Positions 2,821 through 59,212 of a DNA stretch of 59,784 bases are shown piece after piece. The notes under the pieces were generated by a model, which did not search any database, was not told the origin of the DNA, and saw only the letters and a program-made list of their open reading frames with translations. The stretch is from Patescibacteria group bacterium (lineage in GTDB: Bacteria; Patescibacteriota; Minisyncoccia; UBA6257; JAKLIH01), in assembly GCA_022709715.1 (NCBI GenBank), contig JAKLIH010000002.1, positions 1 to 59,784 of the forward strand. Reading direction: 5' to 3'. Made by a program: the position numbers and the translations under genes. Position 1 is the stretch's first letter. The number at the start of each line of letters is the position of its first letter.

Positions 2821-2896
2821 GGGGGAGTAAGTAGTAAGTAGTGATAAAAAGAGTAATTGGTAAATGGTAATTAGTAATGAAAAAACAATAGTAAAA
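2821..2896 (+). repeat. degenerate heptamer (GTAA-word) array
   Basis: agtaagt agtaagt ... gagtaattggtaaatggtaattagtaat. Contains a 33-nt exact copy (2846..2878) of 56268..56300. Starts 2 nt after the stop codon. Confidence 0.8.
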
Positions 2897-3040
2897 CCCC
2901 CACACCCAGAAAGGTTAAGATTAAAAATAAAATTTTTAATCGGGGAATGAATAAATCCAATTTATAATTATGCTTTCAATTTGAATGTTAAAACTAATAA
3001 AATAATGTTAACCGCTCACAACCTTTGCTGGGTGTGGGGG
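2897..3040. repeat. MITE-like / long-hairpin element with about 20-bp terminal inverted repeats
   Basis: ccccacacccagaaaggtt ... aacctttgctgggtgtgggg flanking about 100 bp. A homologous copy lies at 58726..58901. Confidence 0.6.
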
Positions 3041-3049
3041 CCAGCAATG

Positions 3050-3177: not shown

Positions 3178-3266
3178 CCCTGCCTACCGGCAGGCAGGCT
3201 AATATTCTAAACGAAATACACTAAATAAAATTCTCCACCACGACCAACCAAAGGTTGGTGTGGGGA
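3178..3266. repeat. GC-rich palindromic repeats (type B cctgcc..ggcagg and type A ccacaccaacc-aaa-ggttggtgtgggg)
   Basis: ccctgcctaccggcaggcagg at 3178-3199 and hairpin ctccaccacgaccaacc aaa ggttggtgtgggga at 3233-3266. Both families recur elsewhere in the window. Confidence 0.75.
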
Positions 3267-3326
3267 CTAGCAAGTTTCAAAATCAATGTTCATAAGCACG
3301 CAAATATAAAAAATGATTGAAAAACA

Positions 3327-5432
3327 ATGATAAAAGGTGAAATTAAAAAAAGAATAGAAAAATTAAAAGATGAGATAAATTATCATAATTATCTTTATCA
3401 TGTTTTAGATAATCCGAGTATATCGGATGAAGCATATGATGACTTGTTTAAGGAATTGAGAAAACTTGAAAATGATAATCCTGAATTTAAAACTACTGAT
3501 TCACCAACTCAAAAAACTGGCGGTAAAGCTATTGATAATTTTAAAAAAGTAAAACATCAGAAAAAGATGCTATCTTTATATGATTTAAAAACCAAAGATG
3601 AATTTAAAGATTGAGATACAAGAGTTAAGAAATTGATAGTCGAACATAATTTAAAGATTAATGGTGATATTGAATATTATTGCGAATATAAATTTGATGG
3701 ACTTTCGATGGCTTTGATTTATGAAGATTCTAAATTTATTTTAGGAGCAACGCGAGGAGATGGTGAAATTGGAGAAGATGTGACAGAAAATTTAAAAACA
3801 ATTAGAACAATTCCTTTGAAATTGTTTAACGAAAAACAAATTAAAGAAAGTTTAAAAAAGAATAAAGCTGAATATTTGTTGGAAGGAATTATTGCGAATT
3901 TAAAAGGTAGAATTGAAATTCGAGGAGAAGTTATTATTGATGAAAAAGAATTTAATAGAATTAATAGGGAACAAAAGAAAAAGGGATTAATGGTATATGC
4001 AAATCCAAGAAATTTAGCAGCTGGATCAATCCGCCAGTTAGATCCTAGTATTACGCATGACCGTAAATTAACTTTTAATGGTTATGACTTGGTTACTGAT
4101 ATGGGACAAATAAAACATAGTGAAGCCCACATTATTTTAGAAGCGTTAGGATTTATGGCGAATAATAATATTAATCAAGCATGTTTGGGCGTTCAAGATG
4201 TTTTTAAATTTTATGATGAAGTTTTAAATAAACGAGAAAAATTGGATTTTGAAATTGATGGAATAGTTGTACAAGCTGATGATATTAAAACTTTTAATAA
4301 ATTAGGGCTTATTGGTAAAGGCCCACGAGCGGGTATTGCTTTTAAATTTCCGCCGATTGAAGGTGTTACCAAAGTTATTGATATTAAATTGCAAGTTGGG
4401 CGGACAGGAGTTTTGACACCAGTAGCGTTTTTAAATCCAATAAAAATTGGTGGGGCCAAAGTTACACGCTCGACTTTACATAATAAAGAAGAAATAAAGA
4501 GATTAAATTTAAAAATAGGTGATACCGTGGTAGTGACTAGATCGGGCGATGTGATCCCCAAAGTTTTAAAGGTTTTGGTTAACTTGCGAACTGGAAAAGA
4601 GAAAGAATTTATTATGCCAGATAAATGTCCATTATGTAATAATAAAATAGTTGAAGATGAATCCGGAATTTTAGTGAGATGTATTAATAAAAAATGTCCA
4701 GGTAGAAACGAAGGGTATTTAAACCATTTTGTTTCTCGCCAAGCTTTTGATATTAAAGGGTTGGGGGATAAGATTTTAAAGAAATTAATTGATGAATGCT
4801 TGGTAACCGATGTATCGGATCTATTTGATTTAGAAGAAGGCGATCTAAAGGTACTGGAAAGATTTGGTGAAAAATCTAGCAAAAATATAATTGAAAGTAT
4901 AAATAAATCAAAAACTATAAATATTAATAAATTTATTTTTGCATTGGGTATTTTAAATATTGGTAAAGAAAGTGCCGAAGTAATTGCTAATAGACTTTTA
5001 GAATTGGGCGATATTAAAAGCCCTGATGATTTATTAAAATTGGCTAAAAAATTATCTAAACAGGACTTTGATGATTTACAAGATTTCGGAGAAAAAATGG
5101 CGGAAAGTGTTTATGAATATTTTAATAATAAATATACTTTAAATTTATTTGATAAATTAACAAAAGCCGGTGTAAATATTTTAACCAATAAGAAAATTAT
5201 TAATCAAAAACTAAAAAATTTAAAGTTTTTGTTTACAGGAGAATTAAGTACAATGTCGCGCGAAAAAGCTCAGGATAAAGTTAAAGAAAGAGGCGGGATT
5301 ATAAAAGAAACAGTGACCAAGGACTTAGATTATTTAGTGGTTGGTAGTGAACCCGGGAGCAAATTAGAAAAAGCTAAGAAATTGGGGGTTAAAATTCTAA
5401 ATGAAGAAGAATTTCTAAAAATGGTGAAATAG
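3327..5432 (+). CDS. ligA: NAD-dependent DNA ligase
   Basis: KxDG adenylation motif (YKFDGLS), Cys4 zinc finger (CPLCN..C..C), HhH region and BRCT-like C-terminus. Two track pieces share a frame, joined by TGA at 3612. Confidence 0.9.
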
Positions 5433-5436
5433 AAAT

Positions 5437-6176
5437 ATGTTTATACCTAAAACGGAAAAAATAAAAAAATTATCAGAAAAATATTCTAAAAATATACAAG
5501 AACTAGAATCTATTTTTGATAAAAATACTTATGTATATATAGATTTTGCAAATGTTATTCATTGGCAAGATAAATTACAATGACATATTTCGGTGAAAAG
5601 GTTAAAACAATTTTTAGAATCATTTAATACCATAAAGGATATAAAAATTTATTATGGTACTTTGGAAAATAATGAACATTCGTTAGATTTAATACAAAGT
5701 TTTAATGAATGTAAATATCATTGTAAAACAAAAAAAGTTAAAATAATAAAAAATCTATAGATGTTTCTAGTATAGATTTAACTTCTATAGATTTATTAAA
5801 AAATTTTATTAAGAAACCTCTTTTATCAAAATTTACTATTGAGACAATAAAATTTATAAATAATGAACTTAAAAAATTAAATCAAAATGGTATCTTAGAG
5901 TTGGAGGATGAAAAATGCAATTTTGATGTAGAAATTGGTATAGATATGTTGACTGATTATAGAAATAACAATGTAGATAATTTTATTTTGTGAAGTGGCG
6001 ATAGTGATTTTGCTTATCCAATACAAGAGTTATTATTAAATAACAAGAAGGCGATTATTTTTACTATTTCTAGGCGTGTTGGTCCTGAATTGACCGACAC
6101 TAAGGTTAAAGTTTTTGATATAAGAAAAATAAAAAATTTTATTTGTTGAAATAAAGAAATAAGATGAGAAAAATAG
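5437..6176 (+). pseudogene. NYN/LabA-like (DUF88) nuclease-domain gene, frameshifted
   Basis: Frame 1 runs 5437..5760 and stops at TAG. The reading continues in another frame from the A-rich run at about 5741-5756 to TAG 6174-6176, giving ..CNFDVEIGIDMLTD..FILWSGDSDFAYPIQ.. (NYN motifs). Confidence 0.6.
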
Positions 6177-6201
6177 GTATTTTAGTTTTCCACAAAGATA
6201 A

Positions 6202-6231
6202 TTGACAATTTAATATTTTGTGTGATATAAT
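6202..6231 (+). promoter_or_regulatory. sigma70-like promoter (TTGACA-N18-TGTGATATAAT)
   Basis: ttgacaatttaatattttgtgtgatataat with an extended -10. Confidence 0.5.
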
Positions 6232-6237
6232 AGTGTT

Positions 6238-6297
6238 AACTAGAAATAGTTAAAATGTCAATGGCTTGGGGCTACTTTTTGTAGTCCCCTTTGCATT
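6238..6297 (+). ncRNA. candidate small RNA (about 60 nt)
   Basis: Promoter at 6202-6231; GAAA-tetraloop hairpin ttaacta-gaaa-tagttaa; terminator ggggctac-ttttt-gtagtcccc followed by ttt. No plausible ORF. Confidence 0.3.
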
Positions 6298-6342
6298 TAT
6301 GTATTTGTTTATATATTAAAATAAGATCAGATGATTAAATAG

Positions 6343-6535
6343 AAAAACCCCCCAACACTGTTGAGGGGGGAGATTTTCATTGTTGCGTTAATCCTGAGCT
6401 GCTCTGGTATTTTCTTCCAGCAACGGTTCATTCTGCTATGTGTGGGGATCTCCACTTCCCAGTGTATAGCTAAGTCTGGTTTGCCAATTATCATGAGGGT
6501 GTTTATTCCTCACTAGTGCCAGCCTTGGCTCACTA
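6343..6535 (-). ncRNA. candidate structured RNA (about 190 nt), class unknown
   Basis: Minus-strand TTGACA (6568-6563) N16 TAGCAT (6546-6541). Locally GC-rich with several hairpins. Ends in cccccc-N11-gggggg plus ttttt (6370-6343). No ORF. Confidence 0.4.
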
Positions 6536-6633
6536 ACGATATGCTATCATATTTTTCTAGTGTGTCAACGACATGGTTGTTTCTTTGATTTTTATTATAT
6601 TTTGTGGTATACTTAAGATGAAAAAATAAAATT

Positions 6634-7038
6634 ATGGATAAAAAAGAAATTAAGAAAATTCAAGAAATTTTTAAGAAATATTCAAAGATAAAATTGGCCT
6701 ATTTTTTTGATCCAAACAGTATTGGTTATTTTAATACAGGGAGTAATTGTGATTTTGCGCTTTATATTAAAGAAAAAGATATCATTAAAACATTTAATAT
6801 AAGATCAAAATTAATGAATGAAATTTCTAGAATAATAAAAAATGACAATGTTAATATTATTGTTTTAAATGAAATTGATGATCCAACTTTAAAATTTGAA
6901 ATTATTAGAGAAGGAACATTGATATATGAAGTTGAACCCTATAGAGTTTTAGTACCGCCACAAATATTAAATGAATATGAAGATTTTATACTAACTTTTA
7001 GAAGAAATCAATATGATAAATACAAAGAAATTTATTAA
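6634..7038 (+). CDS. MntA/pol-beta-type nucleotidyltransferase-like protein with degenerate active site
   Basis: 134 aa. Layout resembles minimal nucleotidyltransferases, but the usual G-S and DxD positions read ..FFDPNS.. and ..NCDFALY.. Confidence 0.4.
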   Translation: MDKKEIKKIQEIFKKYSKIKLAYFFDPNSIGYFNTGSNCDFALYIKEKDIIKTFNIRSKLMNEISRIIKNDNVNIIVLNEIDDPTLKFEIIREGTLIYEVEPYRVLVPPQILNEYEDFILTFRRNQYDKYKEIY

Positions 7039-7067: not shown

Positions 7068-8330
7068 ATGAATTTAATTGAAGATTTTAAATATCGAGGG
7101 TTGGTAAATCAGGCTATTGATCTAGATTTATTTAAAAAGAGGATGGATGTTAGTCCGATTACTTTTTATTGTGGGTTTGATCCATCGGCGGATAGTTTAC
7201 AACTGGGTAATTTGTTGGTTATTATGACAGCCAAAAGATTATCCAAATATGGGCATAAGCCAATTATTTTAGTTGGTGGTATGACAGGCCTTATTGGTGA
7301 TCCGTCGGGGCGTGATTCGGAAAGATTATTGCCGGATGAAGCTTTGGTGTTTTTGAGAGTTGAAAAATTTAAAAATGAAATGTCAAAATTTTTTGATTTT
7401 AAAACTGAAGCGGACTTAGTAAATAATTATGATTGATTTAAAGATTTTAAATTAATTGATTTTTTAAGAGATATTGGCAAAAATTTTACAGTCAGTTATT
7501 TATTGAATAAAGAATTTATTAAAACTCGATTAAATAGCGAAGTGGGTATATCTTATACTGAATTTTCTTATGGATTAATCCAAGCTTATGATTTTTATCA
7601 CTTATTTAAAGAATATAATTGTGAAATGCAATTAGCTGGATCGGATCAATGGGGCAATATTACTAGTGGCGCGACATTAATTGAACAAATGACTGGAAAT
7701 AAAGTTTTTGGTTTAACACTACCAATTTTAACAGATGAAAATGGTAAAAAACTATCAAAAAGTTTTAACAATACAGTTTTTCTAAATAAAGAGGTAACCA
7801 CACCTTTTAGATTTTATCAGTATTTTATAAATTTAGCCGATAATTTGGCCTATGATTGAATAAAAATGTTTACATTTTTAAGTCACGATGAAATTGAAGA
7901 AAAAATCAAAGAACAAAAGAAAAAGCCCGAGACAAGACTATGCCAAAAATATTTAGCTAAATATTTAACTGATTTTGTTCATGGAGTTGAAACTACTGAT
8001 CGAGTAGAAAAAATTACCAATATTTTATTCAATGGCGATATTACTAATTTAGATGAAGAAGATTTCGAAGAGGCATTTAGTGACGTTGAACAGGTAAATC
8101 TCAAAATAAATGACTTAATAAATGTTAATTTAGCTGATATTTTAGTAAAAATTGGAATTTGTTCTTCTAAGCGACAAGCCAGAGAAGATATCGAAAATAA
8201 AGCTATAAATATTAATGGTATTATTTATTGCGATGTTGATGAAAAAATTACTGAAGATAAAATCTTGTTTAATAAATATATAGTTATTAGGCGAGGCAAG
8301 AAGAATTATTTTTTGATAAGGAGTAATTAG
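7068..8330 (+). CDS. tyrS: tyrosine--tRNA ligase
   Basis: Three same-frame track pieces joined by TGA at 7434 and 7857. Class I motifs and S4-like C-terminus. TGA 7434 falls on the 'NYDWF' Trp. Confidence 0.9.
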
Positions 8331-8352
8331 TAAATGGTAATTGGTAATTAGA
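8322..8352 (+). repeat. heptamer array, left arm of the inverted pair around the four-helix-bundle ORF
   Basis: gagtaat tagtaaa tggtaat tggtaat tag overlaps the tyrS stop. 8337..8351 gtaattggtaattag is the exact reverse complement of 8793..8807. Confidence 0.75.
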
Positions 8353-8401
8353 AAAATAACAAAACAATAAAATGCGAATACAAAAATAATAAAAACATTT
8401 T

Positions 8402-8761
8402 ATGAAGTTGATTGATCCAGAAATTTATAAAATGACACTACAATTAAGTGATAACGCTTGAGAGGTTTATAATAAAATGAGTAAAACTGAACAAATTATA
8501 ATTGGTACACAGTTTATAACAGCGATTGATTCAATCGGAGCCAATATAGCCGAAGGTTGTGGCAGATTTCATTATTTAGATAAAAATAAATTCATGTATA
8601 ATGCCCGTGGGTCGCTTATGGAAAGTATTTATTGAGTAGAACAATTATACAAAAGACGTATGATACCAATTGATATTTTTGAATCATTAAATGTAAAATT
8701 AGACCAAGAATTATATAAGCTGAACGCTTTTATATCGGTAACCAAAAAACAAGTAGAATAG
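8402..8761 (+). CDS. four-helix-bundle protein (23S rRNA intervening-sequence protein family)
   Basis: 119 aa with ..SIGANIAEGCGR..ARGSLMES.. signature. Two in-frame TGA codons. Confidence 0.7.
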
Positions 8762-8830
8762 TTAATTACTTCTCTCTCTTTACTCTTTCCCCCTAATTAC
8801 CAATTACTACTTTCTACTTACTCCTATTCT
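8762..8830 (-). repeat. heptamer array in reverse orientation, right arm
   Basis: ttaattacttctctctctttactctttccccctaattaccaattactac.. is the reverse complement of GTAA-type words. Confidence 0.75.
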
Positions 8831-8893
8831 CCTTTACAAATTTAATATAATTTGATATAATGACTTTTAATAAAGCAATATAATAATTTTACA

Positions 8894-16986: not shown

Positions 16987-17784
16987 ATGCCTAGCAGATG
17001 AACAAAAGAAGAAGAAAGCAAAAAACGCAAAGAATTATTAGCTCTTTATATAAAAGAAAATAAAACCATAGGTGAGATATCCAAGATTTTAAATATTGGC
17101 CAAAGTACAGTTTTTGATAGGTTGCTACGTTTAAATATTAAATCTCAACCATCCAAAAAGAAATATTATAAAAATAGAAAATACTATGTTAATATTCCTA
17201 AAAGAAAATCTAATAAACTTGCTGAGTTTATAGGAATTATGTTAGGAGATGGACATATAAGTCATTTTCAGATTACTGTTACTCTAGGAACAAAAGAATG
17301 CGAATATGTGAAATATGTATCTAATTTAATGAATGAAGTATTTAAAACTCAATCTAAAATTACTATAAGAAAATGTGGATATAAAACAGTATATGTCGGT
17401 TCTACGGAAGTAGTAAAATGATTAGAATCCATGGGTTTAGTAAATAATAAAGTTAAAAGCCAAGTGGATATTCCAGATTGAATATTAGAAAAAGATTGTT
17501 TTATGAAAAATGTTTTACGTGGATTGATAGACACTGATGGTACAATTTATAAATTGAGGTTTGGAGTTCAAATTATGTTTTGCAACAGATCAATGTTTTT
17601 ATTAAATGGAGTAAGGAGTATTTTTGTAAAATTAGGGTATCATCCTTCTAAAATTAGTGGTTTTCAAGTATATTTAACTAGAAGACAAGAAGTATTAAAA
17701 TTTATTAAAGAAATTGGTTTTCATAATTCAAAGCATAAAAAACGTTGTTCCAAATTTCTTAAAAAATATGGGTACGTCGTATAG
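16987..17784 (+). CDS. free-standing LAGLIDADG homing endonuclease-like protein with N-terminal HTH
   Basis: Three same-frame pieces joined by TGA. Two LAGLIDADG motifs (LAEFIGIMLGDGHI; VLRGLIDTDGTIY). The last 15 nt overlap tRNA-Tyr. Confidence 0.75.
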
Positions 17785-18182: not shown

Positions 18183-18543
18183 ATGGAAACTAATAATTTT
18201 CATAATAGATTAGTAGATTATGCACAAGATGTGTTATTTTTTTGTTAGGGATTTACCGAATGAAAAATTATTTTGATCTATATCAGACCAATTGTTAAGA
18301 TCTGCAACTTCAATTGGTGCTAACATCATTGAAGCAAGAGCTTCAAGCTCAAAAAAAGATTTTATTAAGTTTTATGAAATTGCTTTGAAGAGTGCTAACG
18401 AAACAATTTATTGATTAGAGATTATTATAGAAATAGTGCCAAAGAATTTATTAGATAAATTAAAAATATTACAAAAAGAGACTGATGAGCTAGCAAAAAT
18501 TGTAGCTGCTAGTATTTTGACAATGAAAAATAAAAAAATTTAA
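18183..18543 (+). pseudogene. four-helix-bundle (23S-IVS-type) gene, frameshifted in a T7 run
   Basis: The ATG 18183 frame hits TAG at 18246. Shifting frame at T-run 18237-18243 gives ..LLRSATSIGANIIEARASSSKKDFIKFYEIALKSANETIYW.. Confidence 0.6.
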
Positions 18544-18596: not shown

Positions 18597-18669
18597 AGGG
18601 GCGTAGCTCAACTGGTAGAGCTGCAGTCTTCAAAACTGATGGTTGCGGGTTCGACTCCTGCCGCCCCTG
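18597..18669 (+). tRNA. tRNA-Trp (anticodon UCA), the UGA decoder
   Basis: aggggcg..cgcccct acceptor with A1-U72, G73 discriminator and anticodon loop ct-TCA-aa (18630-18632). Overall very similar to E. coli tRNA-Trp and to the CCA copy at 31289. Confidence 0.9.
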
Positions 18670-18703
18670 CCTATGATAAATCTCCGACAGGCAGGCCTGC
18701 AAA

Positions 18704-31288: not shown

Positions 31289-31359
31289 AGGGGCATAGTT
31301 CAATGGTAGAATAGCGGTCTCCAAAACCGTGGATCCCCGTTCGAATCGAGGTGCCCCTG
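31289..31359 (+). tRNA. tRNA-Trp (anticodon CCA)
   Basis: aggggca..tgcccct acceptor, G73, anticodon loop ct-CCA-aa (31321-31323). Paralogous to the tRNA at 18597. Confidence 0.9.
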
Positions 31360-31418
31360 CCTCCGGCAGGCAGGCCTGCCTACGGTAGGTAAACCTGCCT
31401 TTGGCAGGCAGGCCTGCA
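31356..31418. repeat. three tandem type-B GC palindromes (cctgcc-N3/4-ggcagg) starting inside the tRNA 3' end
   Basis: cctgcctccggcagg / cctgcctacggtagg / cctgcctttggcagg, followed by caggcctgcaaac as after the tRNA at 18669. Confidence 0.75.
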
Positions 31419-31456
31419 AACAGAAAACATCATCTGAAAAGATGGTGTTTTTTGGT

Positions 31457-36417: not shown

Positions 36418-36516
36418 ACCCGCCACGACTAACCAAAGGTTAGTGTGGGCCTGCCTGCCGGTAGGCAGGGGCTAGCCCCGCTTCGCTCCACAACCAACCA
36501 GAGGTTGGTGTGGGGG
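36418..36516. repeat. cluster of GC-rich palindromes (types A and B)
   Basis: ccgccacgactaacc-aaa-ggttagtgtggg, gcctgcctgccggtaggcagggg, and ctccacaaccaacc-aga-ggttggtgtggggg. The 34-mer 36438..36471 is identical to 59179..59212. Confidence 0.8.
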
Positions 36517-36729
36517 CTAGCAATATTCAATATCCAACGTTTTAAAAAATTAAATAAAAATATGATATAAAACAGCCAATATTGTTATAAATGTTGGCTG
36601 TTTTTTATTAAAAAGGGACTTGTATTTTAGGTACTTTTTTGGTATAATGATGTAGATTTATTTAATAATCCAATCGTAAAAAATATCTGTTTTTTCTTAG
36701 GTTTTAAGTTACGATTTAACATTTTTAAC

Positions 36730-58669: not shown

Positions 58670-58725
58670 TATTATTTAAAGATAGAAAACGGTCATAAAC
58701 TTTTAGTTTATGACCGTTTCTTGAT

Positions 58726-58901
58726 CCCCACACCCAGAAAGTTTAAGGTTAAAAATTATATTTTTAACCGAGGAACGTTAAGTTTGTTGCATAGTGTGTA
58801 TTTTAACTAGAATAATTAACCCCCACACCAACCAAAGGTTGGTGTGGGGGCATGCCTTTTAATATTACGTTTATCACTCAAAAACTTTGCTGGGTGTGGG
58901 G
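58726..58901. repeat. second copy of the MITE-like element, with a nested type-A palindrome
   Basis: ccccacacccagaaag.. ... ..aactttgctgggtgtgggg. The first 50 nt are about 85% identical by eye to 2897... The hairpin cccccacaccaacc-aaa-ggttggtgtggggg is nested at 58820-58850. Confidence 0.6.
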
Positions 58902-58902
58902 A

Positions 58903-58931
58903 TTGACATTCATTTATTTGTATGTTATTTT
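58903..58931 (+). promoter_or_regulatory. cassette promoter TTGACA-N17-TATTTT
   Basis: The -35 starts 1 nt after the MITE-like right end. RBS gaaaggagatgaaATG. Confidence 0.4.
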
Positions 58932-59102: not shown

Positions 59103-59212
59103 CGCTTAACTGTTTTAAAATAGTTAAGCCCCACACCAACCATAGGTCGGTGTGGGGACGTGCCTTTGATTTTTTATTGGTTAGTGTGGGCCTGCCTGCC
59201 GGTAGGCAGGGG
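59103..59212. repeat. cluster of hairpin and GC-palindrome repeats
   Basis: gcttaactgttttaaaatagttaagc; ccccacaccaacc-ata-ggtcggtgtgggg; and the 34-mer 59179..59212, identical to 36438..36471. Confidence 0.75.

What the first reader, a model, noticed from the sequence alone, without database searches (positions are those of the whole stretch)
6202..6568. Convergent pair of promoter-to-terminator units with no ORFs: a GC-rich RNA of about 190 nt and an RNA of about 60 nt
Seen, minus strand: TTGACA (6568-6563), N16, TAGCAT (6546-6541), then about 190 nt that is much more GC-rich than the surroundings. It contains several hairpins: tagtgagc/gctggcacta, tgagg/cctca, gctat..atagc enclosing gtgg/ccac, and gttgctgg/ccagagcagc. 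A possible 5'/3' closing pair is cgtta/taacg. It ends in cccccc-N11-gggggg-ttttt (6370-6343). Seen, plus strand: TTGACA-N18-TGTGATATAAT (6202-6231), a GAAA-tetraloop hairpin and the terminator ggggctac/gtagtcccc (6268-6289). The two 3' ends face each other about 50 nt apart. I could not match the long RNA to SRP RNA, RNase P, tmRNA or 6S from memory.
Basis: partly seen in the sequence, partly recalled or inferred. Interest (0 to 1): 0.65.

Follow-up and report, generated by a model that had tools for sequence, protein, structure and literature searches.

The report
Two unrelated small RNA genes
The two facing promoter-to-terminator units are real but are not a pair: the 60-nt one is a conserved, undescribed small RNA that always sits beside a NYN ribonuclease gene in Patescibacteria, and the 190-nt one is a fast-changing, lineage-restricted RNA slot whose function is doubtful in this genome.

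Summary
The window is an AT-rich Patescibacteria (CPR) chromosome that reads UGA as Trp. The plus-strand promoter is the only 12/12 sigma-70 match in the 59.8-kb window. Both terminators are found. Neither unit matches any Rfam family.

The two units are separate cassettes placed side by side in a variable islet between ligA and tyrS.

The ~60-nt plus-strand RNA recurs next to the 3' end of a LabA-like NYN RNase gene in four independent lineages with full loci. These lie in three genomic contexts and both orientations. Promoter, GAAA hairpin, linker and terminator are conserved, with compensatory changes. A covariance model found it only beside NYN genes in 1.3 Mb. I read it as the RNA partner of the RNase, most likely an inhibitor.

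The ~190-nt minus-strand RNA exists as such only in this species. Relatives have differently sequenced RNAs in the same slot, with the same promoter and a similar 3' block. Many relatives have none. Its fold is no better than shuffles (z = -0.5), and its neighbouring MNT-HepT module is decayed here. It is not a housekeeping RNA.

The parts
5437..6176 (+). LabA-like NYN (PF01936) ribonuclease gene. It starts 4 nt after the ligA stop. In the window it is broken by a 1-nt deletion near 5748; it is intact (246 aa) in the 99.5% identical contig L005.
   Evidence: frameshift; L005 gene call; Pfam NYN, E=1.6e-15; AF2 pLDDT 92; best PDB match 2qip, a LabA-like NYN.
6185..6199 (+). Conserved motif GTTTTCCACAAAGAT upstream of the small-RNA promoter. 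It contains the DnaA-box-like TTTTCCACA.
   Evidence: Identical in L004 and near-identical in L180. An inverted TTATCCACAAG lies upstream of the -35 in L183.
6202..6231 (+). Promoter of the small RNA: TTGACA-N18-(TGTGA)TATAAT.
   Evidence: 12/12 with TG. Only 12/12 match in the window. The -35 and -10 are conserved in L004, L180, L181 and L183.
6238..6297 (+). Small RNA of about 60 nt: P1 hairpin 6236-6253 (GAAA loop), linker 6254-6267 (AAUGUCAAUGGCUU), P2 terminator hairpin 6268-6289 with an invariant G.U pair, and tail UUUGCAUUU.
   Evidence: Covariance model R1 scores 81.7 bits, E=6.5e-13. 97% of cells are paired and 6 pairs change on both sides. Fold z = -3.0. Ends are inferred from the promoter and terminator, not mapped.
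6319..6345 (.). Junction scar. A 13-nt direct repeat of the NYN 3' end (AAATAAGATCAGA, compare 6157-6169) is followed by a GATTAAATAG+A-run that resembles the ligA stop region, which abuts the long-RNA terminator in relatives.
   Evidence: D1, 92% identity; alignment of post-terminator sequence with T11 and T16. This is inference.
6343..6534 (-). Long RNA of about 190 nt ('W type'), 47% GC, with an intrinsic terminator at 6368-6343. The 5' end is inferred at about 6534.
   Evidence: Identical in L005. No other homologue of the body in any locus.
6541..6568 (-). Promoter of the long RNA: TTGACA-N16-(TGA)TAGCAT. It is homologous to TTGACA/G-N16-TATTAT/TATAAT in relatives.
6585..6613 (+). Back-to-back operon promoter TTGATT-N17-(TGG)TATACT, which drives MNT(-HepT)-tyrS.
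   Evidence: The same promoter lies directly after ligA or after the small RNA in relatives.
6634..7038 (+). Degenerate MNT-type nucleotidyltransferase gene. The G-S and D-x-D catalytic motifs are replaced, the C-terminus is altered, and the HepT toxin gene is deleted.
   Evidence: alignment with 9 relatives; relatives carry MNT+HepT.

Best explanation
The finding joins two unrelated RNA genes. They lie side by side because the ligA-tyrS gap of this Patescibacteria lineage is a hot spot where small cassettes are swapped.

(1) The ~60-nt plus-strand unit is a real, conserved small RNA gene. It forms a two-gene module with the LabA-like NYN ribonuclease gene upstream. The NYN gene has no promoter-like gap of its own and starts 1-9 nt after whatever host gene precedes it. 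The RNA has a near-perfect promoter and lies at the 3' end of NYN in either orientation. I infer that the RNA binds the RNase through its conserved GAAA hairpin and linker. Most likely it keeps the RNase inactive, as an RNA antitoxin would. Less likely, it acts as a cofactor.

(2) The ~190-nt minus-strand unit is a lineage-restricted RNA gene. It is transcribed back-to-back with the MNT-HepT-tyrS operon promoter and ends at a terminator that in relatives abuts the ligA stop. Promoter, first nucleotides and a 3' block are homologous among four sequence types, but the middle is replaced or rearranged. That pattern fits a weakly constrained accessory RNA. In this genome it sits beside a decayed toxin-antitoxin module and may itself be losing function.

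Shown: the anatomy, conservation, covariation and co-occurrence. Inferred: transcription, RNA-protein binding and inhibition.
For: Small RNA:
- Its promoter is the only 12/12 promoter match in the window.
- The unit is conserved after NYN in L004, L006-L010 and L098. It is also conserved in L180, where NYN is 61% identical in a different neighbourhood.
- In L181-L190 it lies on the opposite strand, with NYN embedded in a type I R-M operon.
- 97.3% of cells are paired and 6 of 16 pairs change on both sides. No shuffle of 500 reached the covariation score, and slid controls fall to 37-63% paired.
- Model R1 found 8 hits in 1.3 Mb. Seven lie within about 100 nt of an NYN stop. The eighth (L179) is at a contig start.
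- Every NYN homologue in the loci has a hit.
- There is no conserved ORF (direct reading) and no Rfam hit.
- NYN keeps its acidic active-site residues as invariant columns D36, D164, D189 and D191. NYN enzymes are Mn-dependent ssRNA RNases (PMC11346440).

Long RNA:
- Its promoter and terminator are present.
- The same slot, strand, -35/-10 register and back-to-back operon promoter occur in T16, T03 and T11.
- W and T11 share about 60 nt at the 3' end, including the terminator.
- tmRNA in the same genomes is 89-94% identical. The long RNA therefore diverges far faster than a housekeeping RNA.

Separate modules: the units occur independently in relatives.
Against: - No transcription data are available.
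- The small RNA rests on only five distinct sequences from four or five lineages. Part of its helix P2 would be conserved anyway as a terminator.
- A DNA-level palindrome bound by a protein would show the same compensatory pattern in P1.
- No direct evidence links the RNA to NYN activity. The single tested NYN defence candidate, HEC-09, gave no phage protection.
- The high sequence conservation of the NYN family is unlike typical toxins. Most members are more than 50% identical, and only 35 cluster representatives reach E<1e-30.
- For the long RNA, the fold is no better than shuffles.
- The long RNA is absent from eight related locus types: L001/L002, L097, the L004 type, L018, L019, L177, L178 and L179. 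These include types with an intact MNT-HepT.
- The long RNA has no detectable complementarity to the adjacent operon.
- Its GC-rich hairpins could be selfish palindromic insertions.
Confidence: 0.6

Rival explanations
1. Neither unit is a functional RNA. The small unit is simply the terminator region of the NYN gene plus a DNA palindrome bound by a regulator. The long unit is intergenic spacer with a fortuitous divergent promoter and a bidirectional terminator for ligA.
For: - Promoter-like matches as a class are not enriched in this AT-rich region: 19 found against 15.5 +/- 3.2 expected.
- The long RNA's fold z-score is -0.5.
- P2 of the small unit would be kept as a terminator in any case.
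- A conserved DnaA-box-like motif next to the small unit hints at DNA-level recognition.
Against: - The small unit flips orientation as a whole, promoter and U-tract included, in L181-L190. On the NYN-sense strand there, the hairpin has no U-tract.
- The -35 and -10 are kept while the spacers diverge.
- The linker and the G.U pair are conserved.
- For the long unit, the -35 and -10 stay in register in four sequence types whose spacers differ.
Confidence: 0.15
2. The long RNA body is mostly a pile-up of selfish GC-rich palindromic (REP/MITE-like) insertions between a real promoter and terminator. This would explain why the middle differs between close relatives.
For: - The genome carries many GC-rich palindromes and a ~150-bp element with CCCCACACCCAG termini.
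- GTGTGGGG occurs 8 times on the plus strand of the window. One copy (6440) lies inside the long RNA, as the 11-mer GTGTGGGGATC that also occurs at an element terminus (58723).
- T11 consists of three near-perfect hairpins, and T16 differs from T03 by an inserted perfect hairpin.
Against: - No part of the W, T11 or T16 bodies recurs elsewhere in about 250 kb of related loci or in the window, apart from that 11-mer.
- W's own hairpins are imperfect.
Confidence: 0.25
3. The long RNA is a divergent housekeeping RNA (6S, SRP or RNase P RNA) that Rfam models miss in CPR bacteria.
For: - Its size (~190 nt) and a possible 5'/3' closing helix (CGUUAGU.../...GAUUAACG) appear in the MFE fold.
- It is GC-rich in an AT-rich genome.
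Against: - Rfam gives no hit even at E<10.
- tmRNA of the same genomes is found easily and is 89-94% identical between them. The long RNA, by contrast, is unalignable between syntenic relatives and absent from the slot in most.
- The T11 form is three simple hairpins.
Confidence: 0.04
4. The two convergent RNAs form an antisense or type I toxin-antitoxin pair.
For: - The 3' ends face each other about 50 nt apart.
- A 55-aa ORF in the long RNA has its GAGG sequestered in a hairpin next to the AUG.
Against: - The predicted transcripts do not overlap.
- The units occur separately in relatives.
- The ORF is not hydrophobic. Frames in the homologous slot are broken by indels.
- No 12-mer complementarity was found.
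Confidence: 0.02
5. The small RNA regulates NYN in cis or in trans by base pairing, either as a 3'-UTR element or as an antisense regulator, rather than by binding the protein.
For: - In the co-directional arrangement, NYN read-through transcripts would contain the small RNA sequence.
- In the convergent arrangement, the two transcripts would share the terminator hairpin in antisense.
Against: - No duplex between the small RNA and NYN mRNA recurs across lineages. The best sites differ, and three of four are within shuffle range.
- The mechanism would have to differ between the two orientations.
Confidence: 0.12

Closest known systems
Type III toxin-antitoxin systems (ToxIN, CptIN, TenpIN)
   Same: An endoribonuclease gene is paired with an adjacent, strongly expressed non-coding RNA that needs no complementarity to the toxin mRNA. 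The module is found in defence-like, horizontally shuffled contexts.
   Different: In type III systems the RNA is a tandem array upstream of the toxin, separated from it by a terminator, and the toxin processes it. Here the RNA is a single unit with its own promoter at the 3' end of the gene, in either orientation. No tandem repeats are present. The RNase has the NYN/PIN-like fold, not the ToxN fold.
HEC-09 and other NYN-domain defence candidates embedded in Hma or R-M systems (bioRxiv 10.1101/2024.01.29.577857)
   Same: A NYN nuclease is embedded in restriction-type operons; in L181-L190 it lies between hsdM and hsdS. The PADLOC hit is weak (E=1.2e-8).
   Different: HEC-09 has an N-terminal HTH-like domain, no RNA partner was described, and it gave no defence in the test. 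The present family is a compact CPR-specific LabA-like group.
HepT-MntA (HEPN/MNT) type VII toxin-antitoxin system
   Same: Relatives carry an intact MNT+HepT pair in the same slot. The window's 134-aa protein is 59-76% identical to those MNTs.
   Different: The window copy has lost the G-S and D-x-D motifs and the HepT gene. No RNA component is known for this system, and the long RNA is present in only some MNT-HepT loci.
6S RNA
   Same: The long RNA has a similar length, and its 5' and 3' ends can pair.
   Different: There is no Rfam match. No rod with a central bubble is predicted. It is not conserved between congeneric genomes and is absent from most.
REP/MITE-type palindromic repeats
   Same: GC-rich hairpins lie in AT-rich intergenic DNA. 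One 11-mer is shared with a repeat terminus.
   Different: The long RNA body is single-copy in all DNA examined, and it sits between a conserved promoter and terminator.

Membership tests
Any Rfam 15 family (incl. 6S, SRP, RNase P, tmRNA, T-box) | Covariance-model score at or above the family's gathering threshold | tested here: not met
   There is no hit in 6100-6700 at the gathering threshold. At E<10 only three chance hits appear, all far below threshold. The same holds for the T16 and T11 slots.
Sigma-70 promoter plus intrinsic terminator transcription unit | -35 and -10 hexamers at 16-18 nt spacing, and a GC hairpin followed by a U-tract on the same strand | tested here: met
   12/12 (plus strand) and 10/12 with TG (minus strand), with a terminator-like site on each strand; the plus-strand promoter is unique in the window.
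NYN-associated small RNA (family defined here, model R1) | P1 hairpin with UAGAAAUA core, linker UC.A..GCUU, P2 with a G.U pair, UUUGC tail; adjacent to the 3' end of a LabA-like NYN gene | tested here: met
   The window scores 81.7 bits. All hits lie beside NYN genes, and all NYN genes have a hit. The model was built from these same sequences, so their scores are circular. The independent part is specificity: no other hit in 1.3 Mb.
Type III toxin-antitoxin | Antitoxin RNA encoded as tandem direct repeats | tested here: not met
   No tandem repeat lies in or near either RNA. Only one R1 hit is found per locus.
Type III toxin-antitoxin | RNA gene upstream of the toxin in one operon, separated from it by a terminator | tested here: not met
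   The RNA is downstream of or convergent to NYN and has its own promoter.
Type III toxin-antitoxin | RNA binds and inhibits the RNase protein | not testable with these tools
   This needs toxicity-rescue and binding assays.
Type I toxin-antitoxin | Small hydrophobic toxin ORF with an overlapping or complementary antisense RNA | tested here: not met
   The units do not overlap. The 55-aa ORF is not hydrophobic and the frame is not conserved. No complementarity was found.
HepT-MntA type VII toxin-antitoxin (neighbouring gene) | MNT with G-S...D-x-D catalytic motif and an adjacent HepT (HEPN) gene | tested here: not met
   The window has FFDPNSIG...SNCDFA where relatives have FFGSRNRG...SDYDFA. 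The gap between MNT and tyrS is 30 nt, so there is no HepT.
NYN / LabA-like nuclease (neighbouring gene) | PF01936 match and conserved acidic active-site residues | tested here: met
   Pfam E=1.6e-15. D36, N39, D164, E166, D189 and D191 are invariant in 44 homologues. The best structural match is 2qip. The window copy carries a frameshift.
6S RNA | Long closing stem, large central bubble, terminal stem; conserved among related species | tested here: not met
   The MFE fold is multibranched with a 6-7 bp closing stem. The RNA is not conserved in syntenic relatives.

The most novel reading that the evidence does not exclude
The LabA-like NYN RNase and its 60-nt hairpin RNA form a new kind of RNA-controlled nuclease module that is widespread in Patescibacteria. 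It would be an RNA-antitoxin or defence system with a PIN-like toxin and a single, independently transcribed, non-repetitive RNA. The module inserts behind host genes such as ligA or hsdM and rides on their transcription.
Probability: 0.25. Interest if true: 0.75.

Novelty: new variant of a known kind. Interest (0 to 1): 0.55.

Why it matters
- Patescibacteria have tiny genomes and almost no described regulatory RNAs. A small RNA that accompanies one compact, highly conserved RNase family across several lineages would be one of the first gene-linked sRNA families described for this group.
- NYN nucleases are turning up in defence islands without a known control mechanism. An RNA partner would give a concrete hypothesis. 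It would also offer a possible reason why a NYN candidate cloned alone showed no phenotype.
- The long RNA matters less. It mainly shows that the ligA-tyrS gap is a cassette hot spot, and that promoter-to-terminator units can turn over very quickly there.

Tried and rejected
- **Rfam.** Searches at the gathering threshold and at permissive E-values on the window and on relatives' slots gave nothing.
- **Homologues of the long RNA.** nhmmer with the long RNA against all fetched loci found only the same-species contig.
- **Viral contigs.** Pattern scans for the long RNA body and its promoter/5' end gave nothing. A pattern scan for the small RNA gave only chance hits. An NYN search there gave none.
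- **Plasmid and phage collections.** No NYN homologue was found.
- **Coding potential.** ORFs in the long-RNA slot are not conserved.
- **Antisense targets.** The long RNAs show shuffle-level energies against the adjacent MNT-HepT operon. The small RNA has no consistent site on NYN mRNA. A 12-mer search of the window found nothing.
- **DGR template idea.** The 151-bp repeat near the RT gene differs mostly by transitions, not adenine-specific changes, and has inverted termini.
- **T-box leader for tyrS on the plus strand.** There is no T-box motif and no Rfam hit.
- **Obligate partner of MNT-HepT.** Rejected, because L018, L019, L177 and L178 have MNT-HepT directly after ligA.
- **Joint alignment of the four long-RNA types.** Alignment and alifold were unreliable with four sequences.
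- **Literature.** Searches for a HepT/MntA-linked or NYN-linked RNA found nothing specific.
- **Not fetched.** The contigs encoding P0129 and P0130 (frameshifted MNTs closest to the window's) are the most likely source of W-type variants.

Full report
**Context**

The window is 29% GC. Open reading frames become long and contiguous only if TGA is read as sense. A tRNA with anticodon UCA lies at 18597-18671. The two TGA codons of tyrS align with an invariant Trp and with an aromatic position in homologues. The organism therefore reads UGA as Trp.

Gene content is typical of Patescibacteria: infC, rplT, pseudopilins, ligA, tyrS, recA, rpsF, ssb, prfA, ftsA/Z and pheST, nearly all on one strand. 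The closest public contigs carry Patescibacteria-type labels ('Candidatus Paceibacterota' and a coarse 'Saccharibacteria' tag) and come from activated sludge, digesters and groundwater.

Around the finding the order is:
- ligA (3255-5432)
- a LabA-like NYN gene (5437-6176)
- the small plus-strand unit
- the long minus-strand unit
- an MNT-type nucleotidyltransferase gene (6634-7038)
- tyrS (7068-8330)

**Checking the observation**

- The plus-strand promoter scores 12/12 with an extended -10. It is the only 12/12 match on either strand of the 59.8-kb window.
- The minus-strand promoter scores 10/12 with TG. It is the second-best promoter match in the 2-kb scan.
- One terminator-like site is found on each strand, against 0.3 expected in shuffles.
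- GC reaches 0.45 across the long unit, against about 0.2 in the flanks.
- Rfam gives no hit for either unit at the gathering threshold. At E<10 only three chance hits appear.

There are three caveats.
- The long RNA folds no better than dinucleotide shuffles: z = -0.54 and -0.5.
- Mechanical ORFs of 55 and 51 aa overlap the long unit.
- GC-rich palindromes are common in this genome's intergenic DNA.

**The locus in relatives**

TyrS homologues of 72-82% identity define a small clade. Their contigs show that the ligA-tyrS gap is variable. The arrangements found are:
- ligA directly before tyrS (L001, L002, L097)
- ligA-NYN-small unit-tyrS (L004, L006-L010, L098)
- ligA-long-slot unit-MNT-HepT-tyrS (L003, L013-L016)
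- the same with an rve integrase inserted (L011, L012)
- ligA-MNT-HepT-tyrS with no RNA unit (L018, L019, L177, L178)
- small unit-MNT-tyrS (L179)
- the window's own arrangement, also in L005, which is 99.5% identical

So the two units of the finding occur independently. They are not a pair.

A 13-nt direct repeat of the NYN 3' end lies between the two terminators, together with a ligA-stop-like remnant. These look like junction scars of cassette exchange. This is inference.

**The small RNA**

The unit after NYN in the L004 type keeps several features while flanking intergenic sequence diverges:
- the -35 and -10
- a 15-nt upstream motif
- the hairpin with the GAAA loop
- the linker
- the terminator, with A-U to G-C and U-A to U-G changes

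NYN homologues of about 60% identity in quite different neighbourhoods carry the same unit.
- In L180 it follows NYN on the same strand.
- In L181-L190, NYN sits between hsdM and hsdS of a type I R-M system. There the whole unit (promoter, hairpin, linker, terminator and U-tract) lies on the opposite strand, convergent with NYN.

Five distinct sequences align over 70 columns with 81% mean identity.
- For the two-helix structure, 97.3% of cells are paired.
- Six of 16 pairs change on both sides.
- No shuffle of 500 reaches the covariation score.
- Sliding the partners drops pairing to 37-63%.
- A G.U pair in the terminator stem is invariant.

A covariance model built from these sequences (R1) was run over 1.3 Mb of fetched loci.
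- It found eight hits and nothing else below E=0.8. Seven lie within about 100 nt of an NYN stop codon. The eighth is cut by the start of contig L179.
- Conversely, every tblastn-detectable NYN homologue in those loci has a hit.
- The scores of the training sequences are circular. The specificity is not.

No ORF is shared among the variants (direct reading). The predicted start lies at the base of P1, so the RNA would begin with a protective 5' hairpin.

**The NYN partner**

- The protein matches PF01936.
- It models with pLDDT 92. Its only clear structural neighbour is the LabA-like protein 2qip.
- Its acidic residues are invariant in 44 homologues.
- The family is compact. More than 1,400 sequences were found, and the best 120 are all at least 52% identical. 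Only 35 cluster representatives at 50% identity reach E<1e-30.
- It has no relatives in the plasmid or phage collections.
- In all three contexts the gene starts 1-9 nt after the preceding gene, with no room for a promoter.
- NYN enzymes are Mn-dependent, sequence-nonspecific ssRNA nucleases (PMC11346440).
- A NYN protein embedded in defence operons, HEC-09, is a listed but unconfirmed defence candidate. Our protein hits that model only weakly.

**How the small RNA most likely works**

- The RNA shows no recurrent complementarity to NYN mRNA.
- Its orientation relative to NYN is free.
- Its most conserved nucleotides are the loop and loop-proximal stem of P1 and the single-stranded linker.

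Together these features fit recognition by a protein better than base pairing. I therefore favour an RNA-protein partnership. The abundant RNA would hold a potentially harmful RNase in check, in the manner of an RNA antitoxin. A cofactor role is the alternative.

This is inference. It works like a type III toxin-antitoxin system, but it fails two defining features of that class: tandem repeats and an upstream operonic position. It should not be filed as a member.

In the window itself the NYN gene carries a 1-nt deletion relative to L005. This could be an assembly error or a recent inactivation.

**The long RNA**

Its sequence is identical in L005. It has no other homologue in any locus or in viral contigs.

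Relatives nevertheless have a minus-strand unit in the same slot. Its features are:
- a TTGACA/G-N16-TATTAT/TATAAT promoter with TG (11/12), 3 nt from the -35 of the operon promoter in T16 and T03
- an RNA of about 135-225 nt
- a terminator that abuts the ligA stop

There are four sequence types: W (the window), T11, T16 and T03.
- T16 and T03 align at both ends and differ by a large hairpin-containing indel.
- W and T11 share about 60 nt at the 3' end, including the CCCCCCUCAA terminator arm.
- All four have a UUAAC/UACAC...GCAA block before the terminator, and a 5' end that can pair with it. This comes from direct reading, and the alignment is uncertain.

The middles are unalignable, although tmRNA in the same genomes is 89-94% identical. 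So this is a homologous but very rapidly changing RNA gene, not a housekeeping RNA.

Frames are not conserved. There is no significant complementarity to the neighbouring operon.

T11 and T16 fold far better than shuffles (z = -4.1 and -3.5). W does not.

The unit is found only in loci that carry an MNT gene, but four MNT-HepT locus types lack it (L018, L019, L177, L178). It is therefore accessory.

In the window the MNT has lost its catalytic motifs and HepT is gone. The RNA's -10 has drifted from TATAAT to TAGCAT. This pattern fits a module in decay, but it rests on a single case. The high GC of W (47%) argues against long neutral drift.

A competing reading is that the variable middles are selfish palindromic insertions.
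- For: the 11-mer GTGTGGGGATC shared with a repeat terminus, and the perfect hairpins of T11 and T16.
- Against: single-copy status in all the DNA I could examine.

**Verdict**

- The small unit is the valuable part. It is a conserved small RNA, absent from Rfam, that is specifically linked to a CPR-wide NYN RNase family and has a testable mechanism.
- The long unit is a real-looking but poorly constrained, lineage-restricted RNA slot.
- The two are neighbours by cassette shuffling, not partners.

Noticed in passing
window 18597-18671 (tRNA-UCA); TGA codons throughout, e.g. in tyrS 7068-8330: This Patescibacteria lineage reads UGA as Trp (code 4-like), not Gly as in Gracilibacteria/Absconditabacteria. 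The UCA tRNA resembles the CCA tRNA-Trp at 31289 (A1-U72, G73). TGA aligns with an invariant Trp in TyrRS. NCBI gene calls for related MAGs (L013, L014, L177) are fragmented, apparently because code 11 was used.
   Followed up: partly
window ~5748 (within NYN 5437-6176): A 1-nt deletion in an A-run, relative to the 99.5% identical contig L005, frameshifts the NYN gene. It is either a recent pseudogene or an assembly error.
   Followed up: partly
window 6634-7038: The MNT-type nucleotidyltransferase has lost its G-S and D-x-D catalytic motifs and gained a 9-aa C-terminal extension. The HepT toxin gene present in relatives is deleted. Database proteins P0129 and P0130 look like frameshifted versions from a close relative.
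   Followed up: partly
window 6186-6194; L004, L180, L183: A DnaA-box-like TTTTCCACA lies about 10 nt upstream of the small-RNA -35 in three lineages. A perfect TTATCCACA lies in inverted orientation at the same place in L183. Its meaning is unknown.
   Followed up: partly
window 6201-6213 vs 6250-6262: The small RNA's linker is 92% complementary over 13 nt to its own -35 region. In L181 the sequence CAATGGCTTG of the window's linker recurs in a duplicated -35 region. Unexplained and possibly chance.
   Followed up: no
window 2896-3047 and 58723-58905; L005 1556-1707: A ~150-180-bp element with terminal inverted repeats CCCCACACCCAG...CTGGGTGTGGGG is present in several copies. Two copies are 91% identical and differ mostly by transitions. 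It looks like a MITE. It is not a DGR template/variable pair.
   Followed up: partly
window 31361-31420, 36420-36520, 58815-58850, 59125-59210: Clusters of GC-rich perfect palindromes (CCCCACACCAACC...GGTTGGTGTGGGG; GCCTGCCTGCCGGTAGGCAGG) lie in intergenic DNA, up to 68% GC in a 29% GC genome. They look like REP-type repeats.
   Followed up: no
window 8335-8832: A ~500-bp insertion relative to L005 carries a four-helix-bundle ('23S rRNA intervening sequence protein'-like) ORF at 8402-8761. A similar ORF lies at 18220-18543.
   Followed up: partly
L005 502-1542 (just upstream of the window start), tmRNA at L005 1887-2237: A 346-aa reverse transcriptase (RVT_1; PADLOC RT/UG-type hits) sits next to the tmRNA gene upstream of infC in the same species.
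   Followed up: partly
L181-L190 (e.g. L181 703-3247): The NYN homologue is embedded in a type I restriction-modification operon, overlapping the hsdM stop and with hsdS downstream. This matches the 'embedded defence gene' pattern.
   Followed up: partly
window 16987-17784: A 265-aa ORF lies between tRNA genes. Its L005 counterpart has a faint LAGLIDADG hit, so it may be a homing-endonuclease-like gene in a tRNA cluster.
   Followed up: no
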